3,453 nucleotides of DNA, from assembly GCA_000004985.1 (NCBI GenBank), contig GG739226.1. The stretch is one strand, 5' to 3'. Below are positions 528 through 3,453 of this stretch, piece by piece (positions within the stretch are counted from its first letter, which is position 1; the number at the start of each line of letters is the position of its first letter). The DNA is from Naegleria gruberi. Lineage: Eukaryota. The notes beneath the pieces were generated by a model that was given only the letters and a program-made list of their open reading frames with translations, did not search any database and had not been told where the DNA came from. Both the position numbers and the translations under genes were made by a program.

Positions 528-1157
528 TTAATATAATTTAGACTTCAAATGTAACATTTCCATCATCTTTTGCAAGCCTTTGGATTGAATTTCTTGTAGA
601 CGAGGATAGTTACGAGAGTTGTGAATGACAGATTCAAATCGAGCCATCAAAACTTGAACTCTATTCAACAACGCCTCATTGGAAGAGTAATGACGAAGTG
701 TTTTGGTTGAGACAAAACTTATGACATCTCCATCGGATAGTCTATCACCAACTTCGTAGTTACGTCTAATCTCCTTGATAGTAGTTAGACCCCAATGTTT
801 ACCAGTGAAATCCTCATCAGCGGATTCCTCATCAAGGTCTTCATCAAGTTGATTAGCTTGTTGCAGAATAGGAGGAACAGCTTCAAGATGCTTTATTCTC
901 TCACCCAAAGAAGTGATGGCGTTGAAAATAGCATCAAGGTTCTTTTCAGAACCAGCTTGGTTGTTATCCAAGGTTTTGCTTGTTGGGTCAACCACAGAGG
1001 GGAGTGAAGCTGAGCTACCATTGTCAGTTACTAGGATGTAACCTGACTTGTAGGTAGAAGTTGAAGATTTGCTTACTGAAACTCTTTGACGAATGTTGGA
1101 GATATTCGCTTTGCTTGGTGTTTGAACCATTTCAATATACTTAATTTTTTTGAGCAT
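528..1157 (-). CDS. Small hydrophilic protein of unknown function, paralog A of a tandem family. It is 209 aa from the first ATG (MLKKIKYIEMVQTPS…) and 199 aa if translation starts at the conserved internal ATG at 1130 (MVQTPSKANIS…). It has a Ser/Thr-rich N-terminal half, an acidic stretch (DEDLDEESADEDF) and a C-terminal approx. 85-aa extension that the paralog lacks. Stop is TAA at 528-530.
   Basis: This is the longest ORF in the window. The track's listed start at 1172 is a TTG, which is not used in eukaryotes. The first ATG is at 1155-1157 with a poor -3 T context. The second in-frame ATG at 1128-1130 has a gaaATGG context and aligns with the start of gene 2. Codon usage is yeast-optimal (GGT 7 of 9 Gly, AGA, TTG, TCT, CAA). 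The overlapping +strand ORF 795..1007 is an antisense shadow. Protein- and DNA-level homology to gene 2 supports that this is a real gene. Confidence 0.75.
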   Translation of the reverse strand: MLKKIKYIEMVQTPSKANISNIRQRVSVSKSSTSTYKSGYILVTDNGSSASLPSVVDPTSKTLDNNQAGSEKNLDAIFNAITSLGERIKHLEAVPPILQQANQLDEDLDEESADEDFTGKHWGLTTIKEIRRNYEVGDRLSDGDVISFVSTKTLRHYSSNEALLNRVQVLMARFESVIHNSRNYPRLQEIQSKGLQKMMEMLHLKSKLY

Positions 1158-1290
1158 AAAATTATTTATCAACTCAATTTTATTGTTTACAATTTGTCGA
1201 AATGCTAACGTTGCATCGTTCCTCGCAACTCTACATTATTGAATCTTCTGTAGCCTTGTTGATTGTTGGATTGATAAGTATTACCTTGTC
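1131..1290 (-). promoter_or_regulatory. 5' leader and proximal promoter block of gene 1, homologous to the block upstream of gene 2.
   Basis: On the minus strand the block reads …attgtaaacaataaaattgagttgataaataatttt ATGCTCAAAAAAATTAAGTATATTGAA ATGG. This matches gene 2's upstream …attgtaaacttaataaaatataagttgagtatttttcc ATGCTCAAAAAATTATCACA ATGG. Further upstream, the +strand sequence cgttcctcgcaactctacattattgaatcttc…gataagtatta matches cacttcgctcagaattagacattttgaa…gttcttc…cgatgtatta. No TATA consensus is visible in this block. Confidence 0.6.
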
Positions 1291-1465
1291 CTTGGTTGAA
1301 GTTGTTGTAGTTGTAGCCAGCTTGTCTAGTATTGTATCTAGTGAGGAACTTACGAAAATTAAGGGTTCTGCTAGCCCATTTGCTGACTTTTTCAATAGTT
1401 TCTGTGTTTGAATGGGCATTAAAAATGACTTTGAAGCAGCTGAAAACTTCTCTAACAGCTACAAA
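1208..1465 (-). other. An 86-codon stop-to-stop open frame with no start codon. It encodes a Q/N/Y/G-rich, prion-like peptide: …FVAVREVFSCFKVIFNAHSNTETIEKVSKWASRTLNFRKFLTRYNTRQAGYNYNNFNQGQGNTYQSNNQQGYRRFNNVELRGTMQR*. It may be a 5'-truncated gene relic, an unrecognised exon, or an emerging ORF.
   Basis: The frame runs from TGA at 1466-1468 to TAG at 1205-1207 on the minus strand. Its only in-frame ATG is three codons before the stop. Codons are strongly yeast-optimal: CAA 5 vs CAG 0, AAC 6 vs AAT 4, TAC 3 vs TAT 1, all five Arg as AGA, and TTC. The listed 62-aa minus ORF (1231..1419, with rare codons CCC/GGG/CTA/ATA) and the 69-aa +strand hydrophobic ORF (1202..1411) are other frames of the same DNA. 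The homologous stretch upstream of gene 2 has stops in all frames. Confidence 0.3.
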
Positions 1466-1535
1466 TCAGGAGGTTCACTTAACCAAATCACCTCCAAACA
1501 ACAAGAGAAGACGATTAAATCTGCTGAAAAAGTAA

Positions 1536-1624
1536 AAACAGCAGAAGATTAGATTTAACTCAGAAATATTCTAAATAAATTCAAATCCTTGAAGAATAAG
1601 TGGTAAATCAAGAATATCACTCTC
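1536..1624 (-). terminator. 3' UTR and probable 3'-end formation region of gene 2.
   Basis: The region immediately downstream of the TGA is AT-rich, with TATTTAGAATATTT on the minus strand. It retains coding-like similarity (GATTTGAAT) to the C-terminal extension that is still coding in gene 1. That fits gene 2 being truncated by a premature stop. Confidence 0.3.
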
Positions 1625-2029
1625 TCAAACGCTTGCAGATTTCAATGACTCACCAAACATTCTTTGGTAAGAGTCGATGATGTGGTTTTTAAACCAATCA
1701 TCTAGTTCATCAGCAACTCTTGCTCTTTTACCAGAAACCTCTTCAGATGGGTTGGACTCAAACAATTCCATCGAAGAAGCGAGAGCAGAAGCACCTTGTG
1801 AACCCACCTTGGCGTTGTTTGAGTCTTTGCCAGGTGATATCTTTTGTTGATTGTTCTTCTTGTTCTTCTTTGTGTCTTGAACAGGAGGAGGTGAAGGCAT
1901 AGCAGAACCATCAGAAGAATTTGAGGTGGAAGGAGTTAAAACAATGACTCGTTGCTCGCTACCTGCAGAAGGTGAGCTAAGGTCTTTCGTTTTCTTGTTG
2001 TTCTTTGGTGTAGTTGGTGTTGGGGCCAT
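1625..2029 (-). CDS. Small protein of 134 aa, paralog B of the same family. It begins MAPTPTTPKNNKKTKD…, has an S/T-P-rich and K/N-rich low-complexity N-terminal two-thirds with NLS-like basic clusters, and ends …KRARVADELDDWFKNHIIDSYQRMFGESLKSASV. Stop is TGA at 1625-1627. It is C-terminally truncated relative to gene 1.
   Basis: The ORF has an ATG at 2027-2029 and an in-frame upstream stop at 2060-2062. Codon usage is yeast-preferred (AAG, AAC, CAA, GGT, TCT, AGA). Several segments align with gene 1: MAPTPTTPK/MVQTPSKA; SDGSAMPSPPPVQDTKK/GSSASLPSVVDPTSK; DSNNAKVGSQ/DNNQAGSE; ADELDDWFKNH/ADEDFTGKHWG; IDSYQRMFGESLKSASV/IKEIRRNYEVGDRLSDGDV. The shadow ORFs 1702..1911(-) and 1720..1902(+) overlap it. 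Confidence 0.72.
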   Translation of the reverse strand: MAPTPTTPKNNKKTKDLSSPSAGSEQRVIVLTPSTSNSSDGSAMPSPPPVQDTKKNKKNNQQKISPGKDSNNAKVGSQGASALASSMELFESNPSEEVSGKRARVADELDDWFKNHIIDSYQRMFGESLKSASV

Positions 2030-2187
2030 TGTGATAATTTTTTGAGCATGGAAAAATACTCAACTTATATTTTATTAAGTTTACAATGAAAACAAGTCCA
2101 TTCTTCACTTCGCTCAGAATTAGACATTTTGAAAAATGTTCTTCATTAACCAAATTAACTCCTGTTCGATGTATTAGGAAGAAATGT
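2030..2187 (-). promoter_or_regulatory. 5' leader and proximal promoter block of gene 2. It contains a conserved uATG at 2049..2047 and a weak TATA-like AATATAAG about 40 nt upstream of the ATG.
   Basis: Homology to 1131..1290 is described in that feature. The upstream ATGCTC… opens a 38-codon uORF that is out of frame with the main start and overlaps it. The block ends inside the left arm of the 19-bp inverted repeat. Confidence 0.6.
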
Positions 2188-2216
2188 AGATTCTCAAACA
2201 TTTCTTCCTAATACAT
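2169..2216. repeat. Perfect 19-bp inverted repeat (hairpin) in the gene 2 upstream region. The arms are atgtattaggaagaaatgt (2169-2187) and acatttcttcctaatacat (2198-2216), separated by a 10-nt loop agattctcaa. It lies about 140-190 bp upstream of the gene 2 ATG.
   Basis: The base-by-base reverse complement matches 19 of 19 positions. The left arm corresponds to the gene 1 region gataagtattacc, which is only weakly similar, so the palindrome is specific to the gene 2 copy. Confidence 0.9.
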
Positions 2217-2255
2217 ATCCTCCAGTAAGCAATTGCCCAGACGTTTCACTGTTTG

Positions 2256-2273
2256 GTACATTAGGAAGATTTG
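2256..2273 (+). repeat. Third copy of the hairpin-arm motif: gtacATTAGGAAGAtttg.
   Basis: The 10-nt core ATTAGGAAGA is identical to 2173-2182 and to the reverse complement of 2204-2213. That gives three copies within about 105 bp in the gene 2 promoter. Confidence 0.8.
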
Positions 2274-2485
2274 TTGAGAAAGGCTAAACAAATGAACATT
2301 ATTATTGGTAAGAAGAGAAAGAATGAGAAGACTTTGATATAAGGATTTGGTAAAAACAATACAAAAATTATGCACTCGAGTGGCATTGTTAGGTAAAGAT
2401 ATACATTTCTTTTGTATTATCAAACTTTCTTGAACTACAAAACAAAATTAAAACAGTACAACTCAAAAAAGTACTTACAAAATTG

Positions 2486-2510
2486 TATTTCAAATATTTC
2501 AAATATTTCA
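2486..2510. repeat. Short tandem repeat with a 9-bp unit: tatttcaaa × 2.8.
   Basis: The sequence is tatttcaaa tatttcaaa tatttca, within an AT-rich spacer. Confidence 0.7.
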
Positions 2511-2714
2511 CACACATGAAATTCAATACAATGCACGTATTGATTGATCATGTTGATTATTGTTAATTTGTTTTTTTTGTATGATTAAAATGAAAGTCTT
2601 GTTATTTCTATTTATTCCATTTCGTTTGTTCATTTGTTGCCTATTATATTACATCAAATCACAAATCTCATTCACAATAAATCAAGTTGTTTTTTATTTG
2701 GAGAAATTGAATTC

Positions 2715-2850
2715 ACCATGATCGGATTTGGTGAAAAATGAGGTTGACTGAAACTTACAAAGTTAGGACCAGACATTAATGGAAGGTGTTTTGTGTGAAA
2801 GTGGATGGAGGAACTTGATGTTGAAGTATCATTATGTCACTCATCAAATT
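2715..2850 (-). pseudogene. Degenerate relic of a third family member (internal fragment, frame destroyed).
   Basis: This interval is a local GC-richer island (about 60% AT, against about 78% in its flanks). Its minus strand aligns to the internal coding DNA of gene 1. One match is gttcctccatcc…caaaac against GTTCCTCCTATTCTGCAACAAGCTAAT (V-P-P…Q…N). Another is ggtcctaactttgtaag against GGTCTAACTACTATCAAG (GLTTIK). A third is gtaagtttcagtcaacc…ccgatcat against ATAAGTTTTGTCTCAACC…TTCGTCAT. There are two deletions (the acidic stretch and about 45 nt) and several in-frame stops. Its position is about one repeat period (roughly 0.9-1 kb) beyond gene 2. Confidence 0.4.
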
Positions 2851-3453
2851 GCATGTGGATAGGAGTGAATTGAACTCATAAATGTCCTGAAATACATGTT
2901 CCTTTTCTATAATTACAAATTACATTAGTTTGATTCGTAAAAATTTCAAAACATTAAATGAGTTCAGAACCAAACCTACACCTCTGGTTAGAATTACTAG
3001 TTAGAAATATTAAATTGAGAGAATATTACTAGGAATCTATCTTCTTCTAATGAATATTTCTTATCCCTTATTTATTGAATATAATAGTAAAGTATCACAA
3101 ATATTAAAAGTAAAATATCCAATAGTGAAAATTACAGTAAAAGATAATAATCTGGTAGAGAATGGATAAATGACATGCTATTCGTGATGTTTCAGTGAGA
3201 GACAATGTCTACATCATGAGAAAAACAATAAAAACATGAAAATATCACCATTATTTTCACAAATTATGCTACAAGACTCTAAATTATAAATTTAATAACA
3301 TAATAAGCATTATGAATTGTTGTTTGATTTGTAATTGAGCTATGAATTCACTCTGGTAGCATCAAATATCGGAACTTGGTAAATTGACAACATGACGAAA
3401 ATCTGATATTAAATATGATGTTTATTATCTATTTAAATAGTACTAAAAGATAT

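What the first reader, a model, noticed from the sequence alone, without database searches (positions are those of the whole stretch)
2169..2273. A perfect 19-bp palindromic hairpin and a triplicated ATTAGGAAGA motif occur only in the gene 2 promoter
The inverted repeat has 19 of 19 matched positions and a 10-nt loop. A third, direct copy of the arm core lies 70 bp away. The gene 1 promoter is homologous up to this point but lacks the palindrome, so it arose by local inverted duplication after the gene duplication. Three closely spaced copies of a 10-mer about 140-245 bp upstream of an ATG look like clustered transcription-factor sites. The core resembles, with one mismatch, the TTAGGG-type sites bound by Tbf1-like Myb factors, but this is only a resemblance. 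Alternatively the hairpin could be an RNA-level structure or a fragile/cruciform site. Either way it is a candidate for regulatory divergence between the paralogs.
Basis: seen in the sequence. Interest (0 to 1): 0.55.

Follow-up and report, generated by a model that had tools for sequence, protein, structure and literature searches.

The report
Young palindrome beside decayed DIRS retrotransposons
The perfect 19-bp hairpin is real, but it lies in non-coding DNA just outside a broken mobile element of the amoeba Naegleria gruberi and is most likely a recent DNA-copying accident, not a switch for a gene.

Summary
There is a 19/19 inverted repeat (2169-2187 / 2198-2216) with a 10-nt spacer; the longest hairpin in 300 shuffles was 13 bp. 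A third ATTAGGAAGA sits at 2260 (chance within 100 bp about 0.08%).

The framing does not hold. The window is Naegleria gruberi, not a fungus. "Gene 1" and "gene 2" are not locally duplicated paralogs. They are ORF1 remnants of two related families of DIRS-like retrotransposons (RT/methyltransferase plus tyrosine recombinase). Gene 1 is a 5' fragment cut at codon 200. Gene 2 is 98% identical over 130 residues to a 330-aa N. gruberi ORF1, but carries a deletion of about 71 codons, stop codons and an in-place inversion of about 145 bp. The gene 1 element abuts its 3' side.

The shared "promoter" is the elements' conserved 5' terminal region. It ends at 2126, so the palindrome lies 43 bp outside the element. 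No related locus shares that flank.

Copy C matches arm A on its 5' side and the reverse-complemented spacer on its 3' side. One replication template switch explains this, which makes the palindrome a young mutational product. No test supports a regulatory, recombinase-site or small-RNA role. The N. gruberi genome itself could not be searched.

The parts
2169..2187 (+). Palindrome arm A (ATGTATTAGGAAGAAATGT), holding ATTAGGAAGA at 2173-2182
   Evidence: (I3)
2188..2197 (+). 10-nt spacer AGATTCTCAA. Its reverse complement TTGAGAATCT matches the sequence that follows the arm in copy C (TGAGAA).
2198..2216 (+). Palindrome arm B, the perfect reverse complement of arm A. Inferred to be the newly made copy.
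   Evidence: (I3)
2249..2283 (+). Copy C, an older diverged copy of the unit 'CTGTTYG - arm - TGAGAA'. Its arm is 14/19 identical to A. Its 5' flank is 6/7 identical to A's flank. Its 3' side matches the minus-strand reading of arm B plus spacer. It serves as a proxy for the state before the event.
   Evidence: (D3, I20)
2030..2126 (-). Conserved 5' terminal region (5'UTR) of a type-2 DIRS-like retrotransposon. The element's 5' end is at about 2126 (TGTCTAATTCTGAGCG...). This is the part that is homologous to the gene 1 upstream region.
   Evidence: homology with L003 ends at 2126 and with L002 at 2123
1625..2029 (-). 'Gene 2', the N-terminal 130 codons of type-2 ORF1 (98% identical to N. gruberi P0011 residues 1-130), followed by an out-of-frame deletion junction and a stop codon.
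1550..1624 (-). Continuation of type-2 ORF1 after the deletion of about 71 codons (about P0011 208-231), with an in-frame stop.
1400..1546 (+). Segment of type-2 ORF1 (P0011 237-281) that lies on the opposite strand, an in-place inversion of about 145 bp.
   Evidence: (tblastx: window + 1394-1546 matches L002 + 851-1003, while the rest of ORF1 matches in minus orientation)
1239..1402 (-). 3' part of type-2 ORF1 (P0011 281-304, then a low-complexity tail), running up to the type-1 junction.
1131..1238 (-). 5' terminal region of the type-1 DIRS-like element (ATGTAGAGTTGCGAGGAACGATGCAACG...). The same 5' junction is seen at three independent sites.
528..1130 (-). 'Gene 1', type-1 ORF1 truncated after codon 200 of about 340. 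Homology to the full element ends at 539.

Best explanation
The palindrome is a young, probably functionless product of a replication template switch (a local inverted duplication). It lies in non-coding DNA 43 bp outside the 5' end of a rearranged DIRS-like retrotransposon copy in Naegleria gruberi.

Shown: 'gene 1' and 'gene 2' are ORF1 remnants of two related retrotransposon families that carry RT, a methyltransferase-like domain and a tyrosine recombinase. Their common 'promoter' is the conserved 5' terminal region of these elements. The palindrome is not part of that region and is absent from related loci.

Inferred: a short unit 'CTGTTYG - arm - TTGAGAA...' was first duplicated about 87 bp apart, giving copy C and a proto-A. 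Later, in proto-A, the polymerase copied L-arm, switched to the complementary strand, and copied back across spacer plus arm. It then returned downstream. This turns L-arm-spacer'-R into L-arm-rc(spacer')-rc(arm)-R. One such event explains three things at once: the perfect 19/19 arms, the 19-nt gain, and the spacer being inverted relative to copy C. The ~145-bp in-place inversion 620 bp away in the same element copy is a second rearrangement of a kind that template switching or recombination can produce.
For: Organism and element identity:
- Gene 1 is 100% identical to an N. gruberi predicted protein and belongs to a multi-copy family with 340-aa members.
- L001 carries ORF1, then an RT ORF, then a Phage_integrase-like region.
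- L002 has the same layout with a gene-2-type ORF1.
- RVT_1 scores E 1e-20 to 1e-25. Dam-like and Phage_integrase hits appear in both families, below the Pfam cut-offs.

Gene 2 is a decayed copy:
- It is 98% identical to P0011 over residues 1-130, then deleted, interrupted by stops and partly inverted.

Element boundaries:
- The type-1 5' end at 1238 is defined by three independent junctions.
- The type-2 5' end at 2126 is defined by L002 and L003, and it aligns with the type-1 end.

The flank is unshared:
- The 2127-2330 flank shows no similarity above shuffles to the flanks of L001-L004.
- Those flanks hold no comparable palindromes.
- The palindrome is absent from JGI metagenomes.

The palindrome is non-random and young:
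- 19 bp against a maximum of 13 in shuffles.
- A/B are 19/19 identical, A/C 14/19.

Spacer-inversion signature:
- C's 5' flank matches A's (6/7 over CTGTTCG/CTGTTTG; 7/12 in the 12-nt comparison). C's 3' side matches the reverse complement of the spacer (TGAGAA).

Mechanism is established elsewhere:
- Template switching between inverted-repeat arms homogenises the arms and inverts the spacer (PMC8604942 abstract).
- It also creates perfect hairpins (PMC5453318, PMC8794818).
Against: There is only one locus and no orthologous or ancestral sequence. The pre-event state is inferred from a diverged paralogous copy through short matches (a 6/7 flank and a 6-mer), and the wider reverse-complement alignment is only modestly significant (28 of 3000 shuffles reach it). 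The five A/C mismatches all fall outside the central 10-mer, which could hint at constraint on ATTAGGAAGA. Perfect arms could also be kept by selection rather than reflect youth. The N. gruberi genome could not be searched, so this segment may be repeated elsewhere.
Confidence: 0.55

Rival explanations
1. The segment 2127-2330, palindrome included, belongs to another repeat that has not been characterised. Candidates are an N. gruberi-specific extension or terminal repeat of a DIRS-like element, the 3' end of a neighbouring element copy, or a small foldback or MITE-like element.
For: The window is a nest of transposon fragments, and DIRS-type elements cluster and insert into one another (PMC3266345, PMC7192593). 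The 3' ends of these Naegleria elements were not available because L001 and L002 end inside the recombinase ORF. Gene 2 is 98% identical to a paralog whose flank could not be read.
Against: The flank shows no similarity to any part of L001-L004 at DNA or protein level. The window holds no inverted or direct copy of the 5' terminal region, as ITRs or split direct repeats would require. Homology among three type-2 copies and three type-1 junctions stops at the same aligned position. Arms of 19 bp separated by 10 nt leave no room for an element body.
Confidence: 0.15
2. The inverted arms plus the third copy form a binding or recombination site (FRT-like: two inverted elements and a third one) for the tyrosine recombinase of the adjacent DIRS-like elements. 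Such a site could mark an insertion hot-spot or mediate inversions.
For: The site is 43 bp from the 5' end of a recombinase-encoding element. The same element copy carries a 145-bp inversion. The spacer appears flipped relative to copy C. From general knowledge, FRT has two inverted 13-bp elements plus a third.
Against: The site is not at the element/flank junction. The 19-bp arms and 10-nt spacer fall outside the usual 11-13 bp arms and 6-8 bp spacer. The third copy is 47 nt from the nearer arm and 71 nt from arm A, not adjacent. Five other junctions (the window's type-1 junction, L001, L002, L003, L004) have no palindrome or shared motif nearby. The arms do not resemble the element termini by gapless comparison of the sequences.
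Confidence: 0.06
3. One reading: a cluster of transcription-factor sites (Tbf1 or Myb-like) in the promoter of gene 2, causing regulatory divergence from gene 1.
For: Three exact copies of a 10-mer within 100 bp are non-random. The 10-mer core is the best conserved part of copy C.
Against: Gene 2 is a truncated, deleted and inverted retrotransposon ORF1 with no intact product. The conserved region upstream of ORF1 is internal to the element and ends at 2126. The motif is absent upstream of related ORF1s. The organism is not a fungus. TTAGGA lacks the third G of TTAGGG. Two of the three copies follow automatically from one inverted duplication.
Confidence: 0.06
4. The hairpin is transcribed and acts as an RNA structure, for example a precursor of a small RNA that silences transposons.
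For: As RNA the 181-nt region folds with z = -4.0, and the 19-bp stem dominates the fold. Weak Rfam hits to miRNA precursor models cover the hairpin. Template switching is known to create new miRNA hairpins (10.1101/2023.04.19.537475).
Against: The Rfam scores of 24-26 bits are far below the gathering scores of 70-92, so they reflect a generic hairpin. A 19-bp stem is short for Dicer processing. There is no evidence of transcription and no conservation.
Confidence: 0.04

Closest known systems
Perfect inverted repeats made by short-range replication template switching (Löytynoja & Goldman 2017, PMC5453318; PMC8794818; inverted-repeat arm homogenisation and spacer inversion in yeast, PMC8604942)
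   Same: The arms are perfect, the inverted copy is short and local, the spacer is inverted relative to a related copy, and one event explains a cluster of differences. The setting is non-coding.
   Different: No ancestral or outgroup sequence is available here, so the four switch points are inferred from a paralogous copy only. The event created a new 19-nt arm; it did not merely perfect an existing near-palindrome.
DIRS1-like tyrosine-recombinase retrotransposons (Dictyostelium DIRS-1; survey including N. gruberi in Piednoël et al. 2011, PMC3266345)
   Same: The surrounding 'genes' are ORF1s of elements with RT, a Dam-like methyltransferase region and a tyrosine recombinase. The copies are degenerate and nested, as that survey reported for N. 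gruberi copies (many frameshifts and indels).
   Different: The palindrome itself lies outside the element. The defining terminal repeats and internal complementary region could not be examined because the 3' ends are missing.
FRT/loxP-type tyrosine-recombinase target sites
   Same: Two inverted arms surround an asymmetric spacer and there is an additional arm copy. A recombinase-encoding element sits next to them.
   Different: Arm and spacer lengths differ (19/10 against about 13/8). The third copy is distant, the site is not at a junction, and it does not recur at other insertions.
Tbf1/TRF Myb sites on TTAGGG
   Same: They share the pentamer TTAGG.
   Different: The sixth base is A, not G. 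The organism is a heterolobosean, not a fungus. No matrix scan was possible.

Membership tests
DIRS-like (tyrosine recombinase) retrotransposon - context genes | Reverse transcriptase domain downstream of a gag-like ORF1 | tested here: met
   RVT_1 scores E 2.5e-25 in L001 and 8.9e-20 in L002, directly downstream of homologues of gene 1 and gene 2. The window itself holds only ORF1 fragments.
DIRS-like (tyrosine recombinase) retrotransposon - context genes | Tyrosine recombinase instead of a DDE integrase | tested here: inconclusive
   Phage_integrase hits of 23.5 and 24.3 bits (E 3e-5 to 5e-5) appear in both families at the same position. They fall below Pfam's 27.1-bit cut-off, and both contigs end inside the domain.
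DIRS-like (tyrosine recombinase) retrotransposon - context genes | Methyltransferase-like domain after RT/RNase H (DIRS1/PAT groups) | tested here: inconclusive
   Dam (PF05869) scores 22-23 bits (E about 1e-4) in both RT ORFs at residues 509-609, below the 28.1-bit cut-off.
DIRS-like (tyrosine recombinase) retrotransposon - context genes | Inverted terminal repeats plus an internal complementary region, or split direct repeats | not testable with these tools
   No related locus reaches the 3' end, and the N. gruberi genome could not be fetched.
DIRS-like element - is the palindrome part of it? | The sequence is shared by other copies of the element | tested here: not met
   Homology with L003 and L002 ends at 2126 and 2123. 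The flank scores no better than shuffles against all four loci. The motif is absent upstream of their ORF1s.
Template-switch-generated palindrome | Perfect complementarity of the arms, far beyond chance | tested here: met
   19/19 observed against a maximum of 13 in 300 shuffles.
Template-switch-generated palindrome | The derived state equals the ancestral state with a segment replaced by the reverse complement of a neighbouring segment | tested here: inconclusive
   Only paralogous copy C is available as a proxy. Its 5' flank matches A (6/7) and its 3' side matches the reverse complement of the spacer (TGAGAA). No orthologous sequence exists to confirm this.
FRT/lox-type recombinase site | Inverted arms of about 11-13 bp around a 6-8 bp spacer, located at the recombination junction | tested here: not met
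   The arms are 19 bp and the spacer 10 nt. The site is 43 bp from the element end.
FRT/lox-type recombinase site | Recurrence at independent insertion sites | tested here: not met
   There is no palindrome or shared motif at five other junctions.
Tbf1/TTAGGG Myb site | TTAGGG core and a significant match to a factor matrix | tested here: not met
   The sequence reads TTAGGA. No matrix library was available, so no scan was run.
Known RNA family (miRNA or other hairpin) | A score at or above the Rfam gathering threshold | tested here: not met
   The best hits score 24-26 bits against thresholds of 70-92. No tRNA was found.

The most novel reading that the evidence does not exclude
The palindrome plus its third arm copy is a natural recognition or recombination site, or an insertion hot-spot, for the tyrosine recombinase of the Naegleria DIRS-like elements. 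On this reading the flipped 10-nt spacer and the 145-bp in-place inversion in the adjacent element copy are footprints of that enzyme acting on genomic DNA. It would be the first target site defined for a eukaryotic tyrosine-recombinase retrotransposon.
Probability: 0.04. Interest if true: 0.7.

Novelty: new member of a known kind. Interest (0 to 1): 0.2.

Why it matters
The palindrome by itself matters little. It is one more example of how replication errors create perfect hairpins in neutral DNA. The reinterpretation is the useful part. What looked like two paralogous genes with diverging promoters is a nest of two DIRS-like retrotransposon families in Naegleria gruberi. Their 5' terminal regions are strikingly conserved, and the copies are young but heavily rearranged. 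If the palindrome or the nearby inversion were ever tied to the element's tyrosine recombinase, that would give a handle on how these poorly understood elements choose and rearrange their targets.

Tried and rejected
- **Gene duplication:** gene 1 against gene 2 gave BLASTP E 0.42 and hhalign probability 0.2%. Only full-length family members show distant homology. A local duplication is rejected.
- **Fetching N. gruberi paralogous loci by exact protein:** six look-ups found nothing on record.
- **Strict palindrome pattern in JGI metagenomes:** 0 hits.
- **Conserved type-2 5'UTR 24-mer in JGI metagenomes:** 0 hits.
- **Type-1 ORF1 (gag-like) profile in viral contigs:** no confirmed relatives.
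- **Head-to-head inverted copy of the element's 5' region upstream of the palindrome:** the alignment score equals the shuffle mean, so this is rejected.
- **Flanks 1-538 and 2127-3453 as decayed RT or recombinase sequence:** tblastx found nothing below E 0.01.
- **Extension of the type-2 homology into the palindrome flank in L001-L004:** not above shuffles.
- **13-nt match between the palindrome arm and the L001 recombinase ORF (4123-4135):** E 0.55, consistent with chance.
- **tRNA and Rfam scans:** nothing meaningful.
- **Possible intron in gene 2 (GTGAGT at 1653-1648 with a CAG acceptor near 1524), checked by eye on the sequence:** it adds only about 20 codons before a stop and is not supported by homologues.
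- **Pfam on the window ORFs:** only sub-threshold noise.

Full report
**1. Observation**

The window contains a perfect inverted repeat. The arms are 2169-2187 (ATGTATTAGGAAGAAATGT) and 2198-2216, and the spacer is the 10-nt AGATTCTCAA (I3). As single-stranded DNA it folds at -17.6 kcal/mol, with z = -9.7. In 300 dinucleotide-preserving shuffles of the window, the longest perfect hairpin with a 3-30 nt loop was 13 bp, against 19 observed.

ATTAGGAAGA occurs at 2173(+), 2203(-) and 2260(+), and nowhere else even with one mismatch. With the palindrome held fixed, a further exact copy arises anywhere in 1.5% of shuffles and within 100 bp in 0.08%.

**2. What surrounds it**

The window is not fungal. 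The 200-aa ORF at 528-1130(-), called 'gene 1', is 100% identical to a predicted protein of Naegleria gruberi. It belongs to a multi-copy family whose full-length members are 339-344 aa.

- **Gene 1 belongs to a retrotransposon.** A metagenomic contig, L001, carries a 339-aa homologue. It is followed by a 645-codon ORF with RVT_1 (E 2.5e-25) and a sub-threshold Dam-like region, and then by a sub-threshold Phage_integrase-like region.
- **Gene 1 is a truncated fragment.** Window 1240→539 on the minus strand aligns with L001 632-1332 at 77.5% identity (E 6e-165) and then stops. Gene 1 is therefore the 5' fragment (5'UTR plus 200 codons) of a DIRS-like tyrosine-recombinase retrotransposon.
- **Its 5' end is well defined.** The end (ATGTAGAGTTGCG..., window 1238) is fixed by three independent junctions with unrelated flanks: the window, L001 and L004.

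'Gene 2' (1625-2029, minus strand, 134 aa) had no hit in the word-indexed protein search. An exhaustive phmmer search and then a profile search found a family of N. gruberi and metagenomic proteins.

- **Gene 2 is also a retrotransposon ORF1.** In contig L002 a member of the family is ORF1 of an element with the same architecture: RVT_1 at E 8.9e-20, plus Dam-like and Phage_integrase-like regions.
- **The two families are related but distinct.** Their RTs are 55% identical. Their full-length ORF1s are only about 20% identical (E 1e-8). The two window ORFs show no detectable similarity to each other.
- **The window's type-2 copy is young but wrecked.**
  - Residues 1-130 are 98% identical to P0011.
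  - About 71 codons are then missing.
  - P0011 208-224 follows on the minus strand, with an in-frame stop after it.
  - P0011 237-281 lies on the plus strand at 1412-1546. This is confirmed by tblastx orientation against L002.
  - P0011 281-304 is again on the minus strand.
- **The inverted segment.** The part at about 1400-1546 is an in-place inversion of about 145 bp.
- **The type-1 fragment abuts this copy at 1238/1239.** In L004, a type-1 5' end that is 99% identical to the window's abuts a different position of another type-2-family ORF1. This is nested insertion, a pattern typical of DIRS elements (PMC3266345, PMC7192593).

**3. The 'homologous promoter'**

An alignment of six 5' regions shows a conserved 5' terminal segment of about 100 nt. 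The six are the window type 1, the window type 2, and L001 to L004. ATGCTCAAAAAA is invariant in all six, and a 29-mer is identical among the three type-2 copies that include that segment (window, L002, L003).

Homology of the window with L003 and L002 ends at 2126 and 2123. That position aligns with the type-1 5' end, and both ends begin with (A)TGT. The palindrome therefore lies 43-90 bp outside the element and the third copy about 134 bp outside.

The flank 2127-2330 shows no similarity above shuffles to the flanks of L001-L004. Those flanks hold no comparable palindromes and no ATTAGGAAGA (the single hit lies inside the L001 recombinase ORF and is consistent with chance). The flanks 1-538 and 2127-3453 show no trace of RT or recombinase coding sequence. 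There is no tRNA or known RNA family.

**4. How the palindrome arose**

Arms A and B are 19/19 identical, while A and copy C are 14/19 identical, so the A/B event is younger.

Copy C (2249-2283) is chimeric with respect to the present palindrome. Its 5' flank matches that of A (CTGTTCG against CTGTTTG). After the arm it reads TGAGAA, which matches the minus-strand spacer TTGAGAATCT and not the plus-strand AGATTCTCAA. C therefore looks like the state before the event, L-arm-spacer'.

A single template switch converts L-arm-spacer'-R into the observed L-arm-rc(spacer')-rc(arm)-R. In that switch the polymerase copies back over spacer' and arm on the complementary strand and then returns downstream.

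Template switching between inverted-repeat arms is documented to homogenise the arms and invert the spacer (PMC8604942). It is also documented to create perfect hairpins (PMC5453318, PMC8794818).

This step is inference. The supporting matches are short, and the wider reverse-complement alignment reaches only p of about 0.009.

**5. Function**

Gene 2 is a pseudogene-like retrotransposon remnant, and the conserved upstream region is internal to the element. The palindrome is unshared flank DNA. I therefore consider it most likely a neutral, recent mutational product (confidence about 0.55).

The rivals are:

- part of an uncharacterised repeat (0.15), which cannot be excluded because the N. 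gruberi genome was out of reach;
- an FRT-like site for the element's recombinase (0.06);
- a transcription-factor cluster, as first proposed (0.06);
- a hairpin RNA (0.04).

**6. Comparison and novelty**

DIRS1-like sequences in N. gruberi were already reported, with many frameshifts and indels (PMC3266345). Template-switch palindromes are an established kind. This is a new instance of known kinds, and its interest is low.

**7. Limits**

There is no orthologous sequence, no genome-wide copy count, no expression data and no transcription-factor matrix scan. Both metagenome scans found nothing.

Noticed in passing
window 1400-1546: About 145 bp of the type-2 ORF1 (P0011 residues 237-281) lies on the opposite strand from the rest of that ORF. 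This is an in-place inversion inside a copy that is otherwise 98% identical to its paralog at the N-terminus. An out-of-frame deletion of about 71 codons lies just upstream of it.
   Followed up: partly
window 1238/1239 and L004 ~659: The 5' end of the type-1 element (99% identical between the two loci) abuts ORF1 of a type-2-family element at two different positions. This suggests repeated insertion of one DIRS-like family into another.
   Followed up: partly
L001 1758-4436 and L002 1177-3879: The reading frame that ends in the tyrosine-recombinase domain is free of stops across the entire 645-codon RT/methyltransferase ORF, giving 893 and 901 open codons. This occurs in 36-38% GC DNA and in two families whose RTs are only 55% identical. 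The overlapping open frame therefore appears to be maintained. From memory, DIRS-1 has overlapping ORFs, so this may be a known feature of the group.
   Followed up: no
window 2030-2126 and 1131-1238; L001-L004 5' regions: The 5' terminal region is very strongly conserved across families. ATGCTCAAAAAA lies 10-20 nt before the ORF1 ATG and is invariant in six copies. The 29-mer GTGAAGAATGGACTTGTTTTCATTGTAAA is identical in three type-2 copies that are otherwise 69-81% identical. This probably reflects a promoter or a replication signal of the elements.
   Followed up: partly
window 1208-1229 (minus strand): The type-1 5' end holds a small hairpin, GTTGC-N10-GCAAC, with a 10-nt loop like the large palindrome. 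The same sequence is present in L001 and L004, and the N-terminus of the P0005 gene model matches its translation.
   Followed up: no
window 2482-2527: There is a 9-bp tandem repeat (ATTTCAAAT, about 2.7 copies), overlapped by an imperfect palindrome, in the AT-rich non-coding stretch (D5, D8, I2).
   Followed up: no
window 2274-3453 and 1-538: There is more than 1.2 kb of 23-33% GC sequence with no ORF above about 70 codons on one side of the transposon nest, and about 0.5 kb on the other. From general knowledge, such long stretches are unusual for the gene-dense N. gruberi genome. This may be a repeat-rich, gene-poor region.
   Followed up: no
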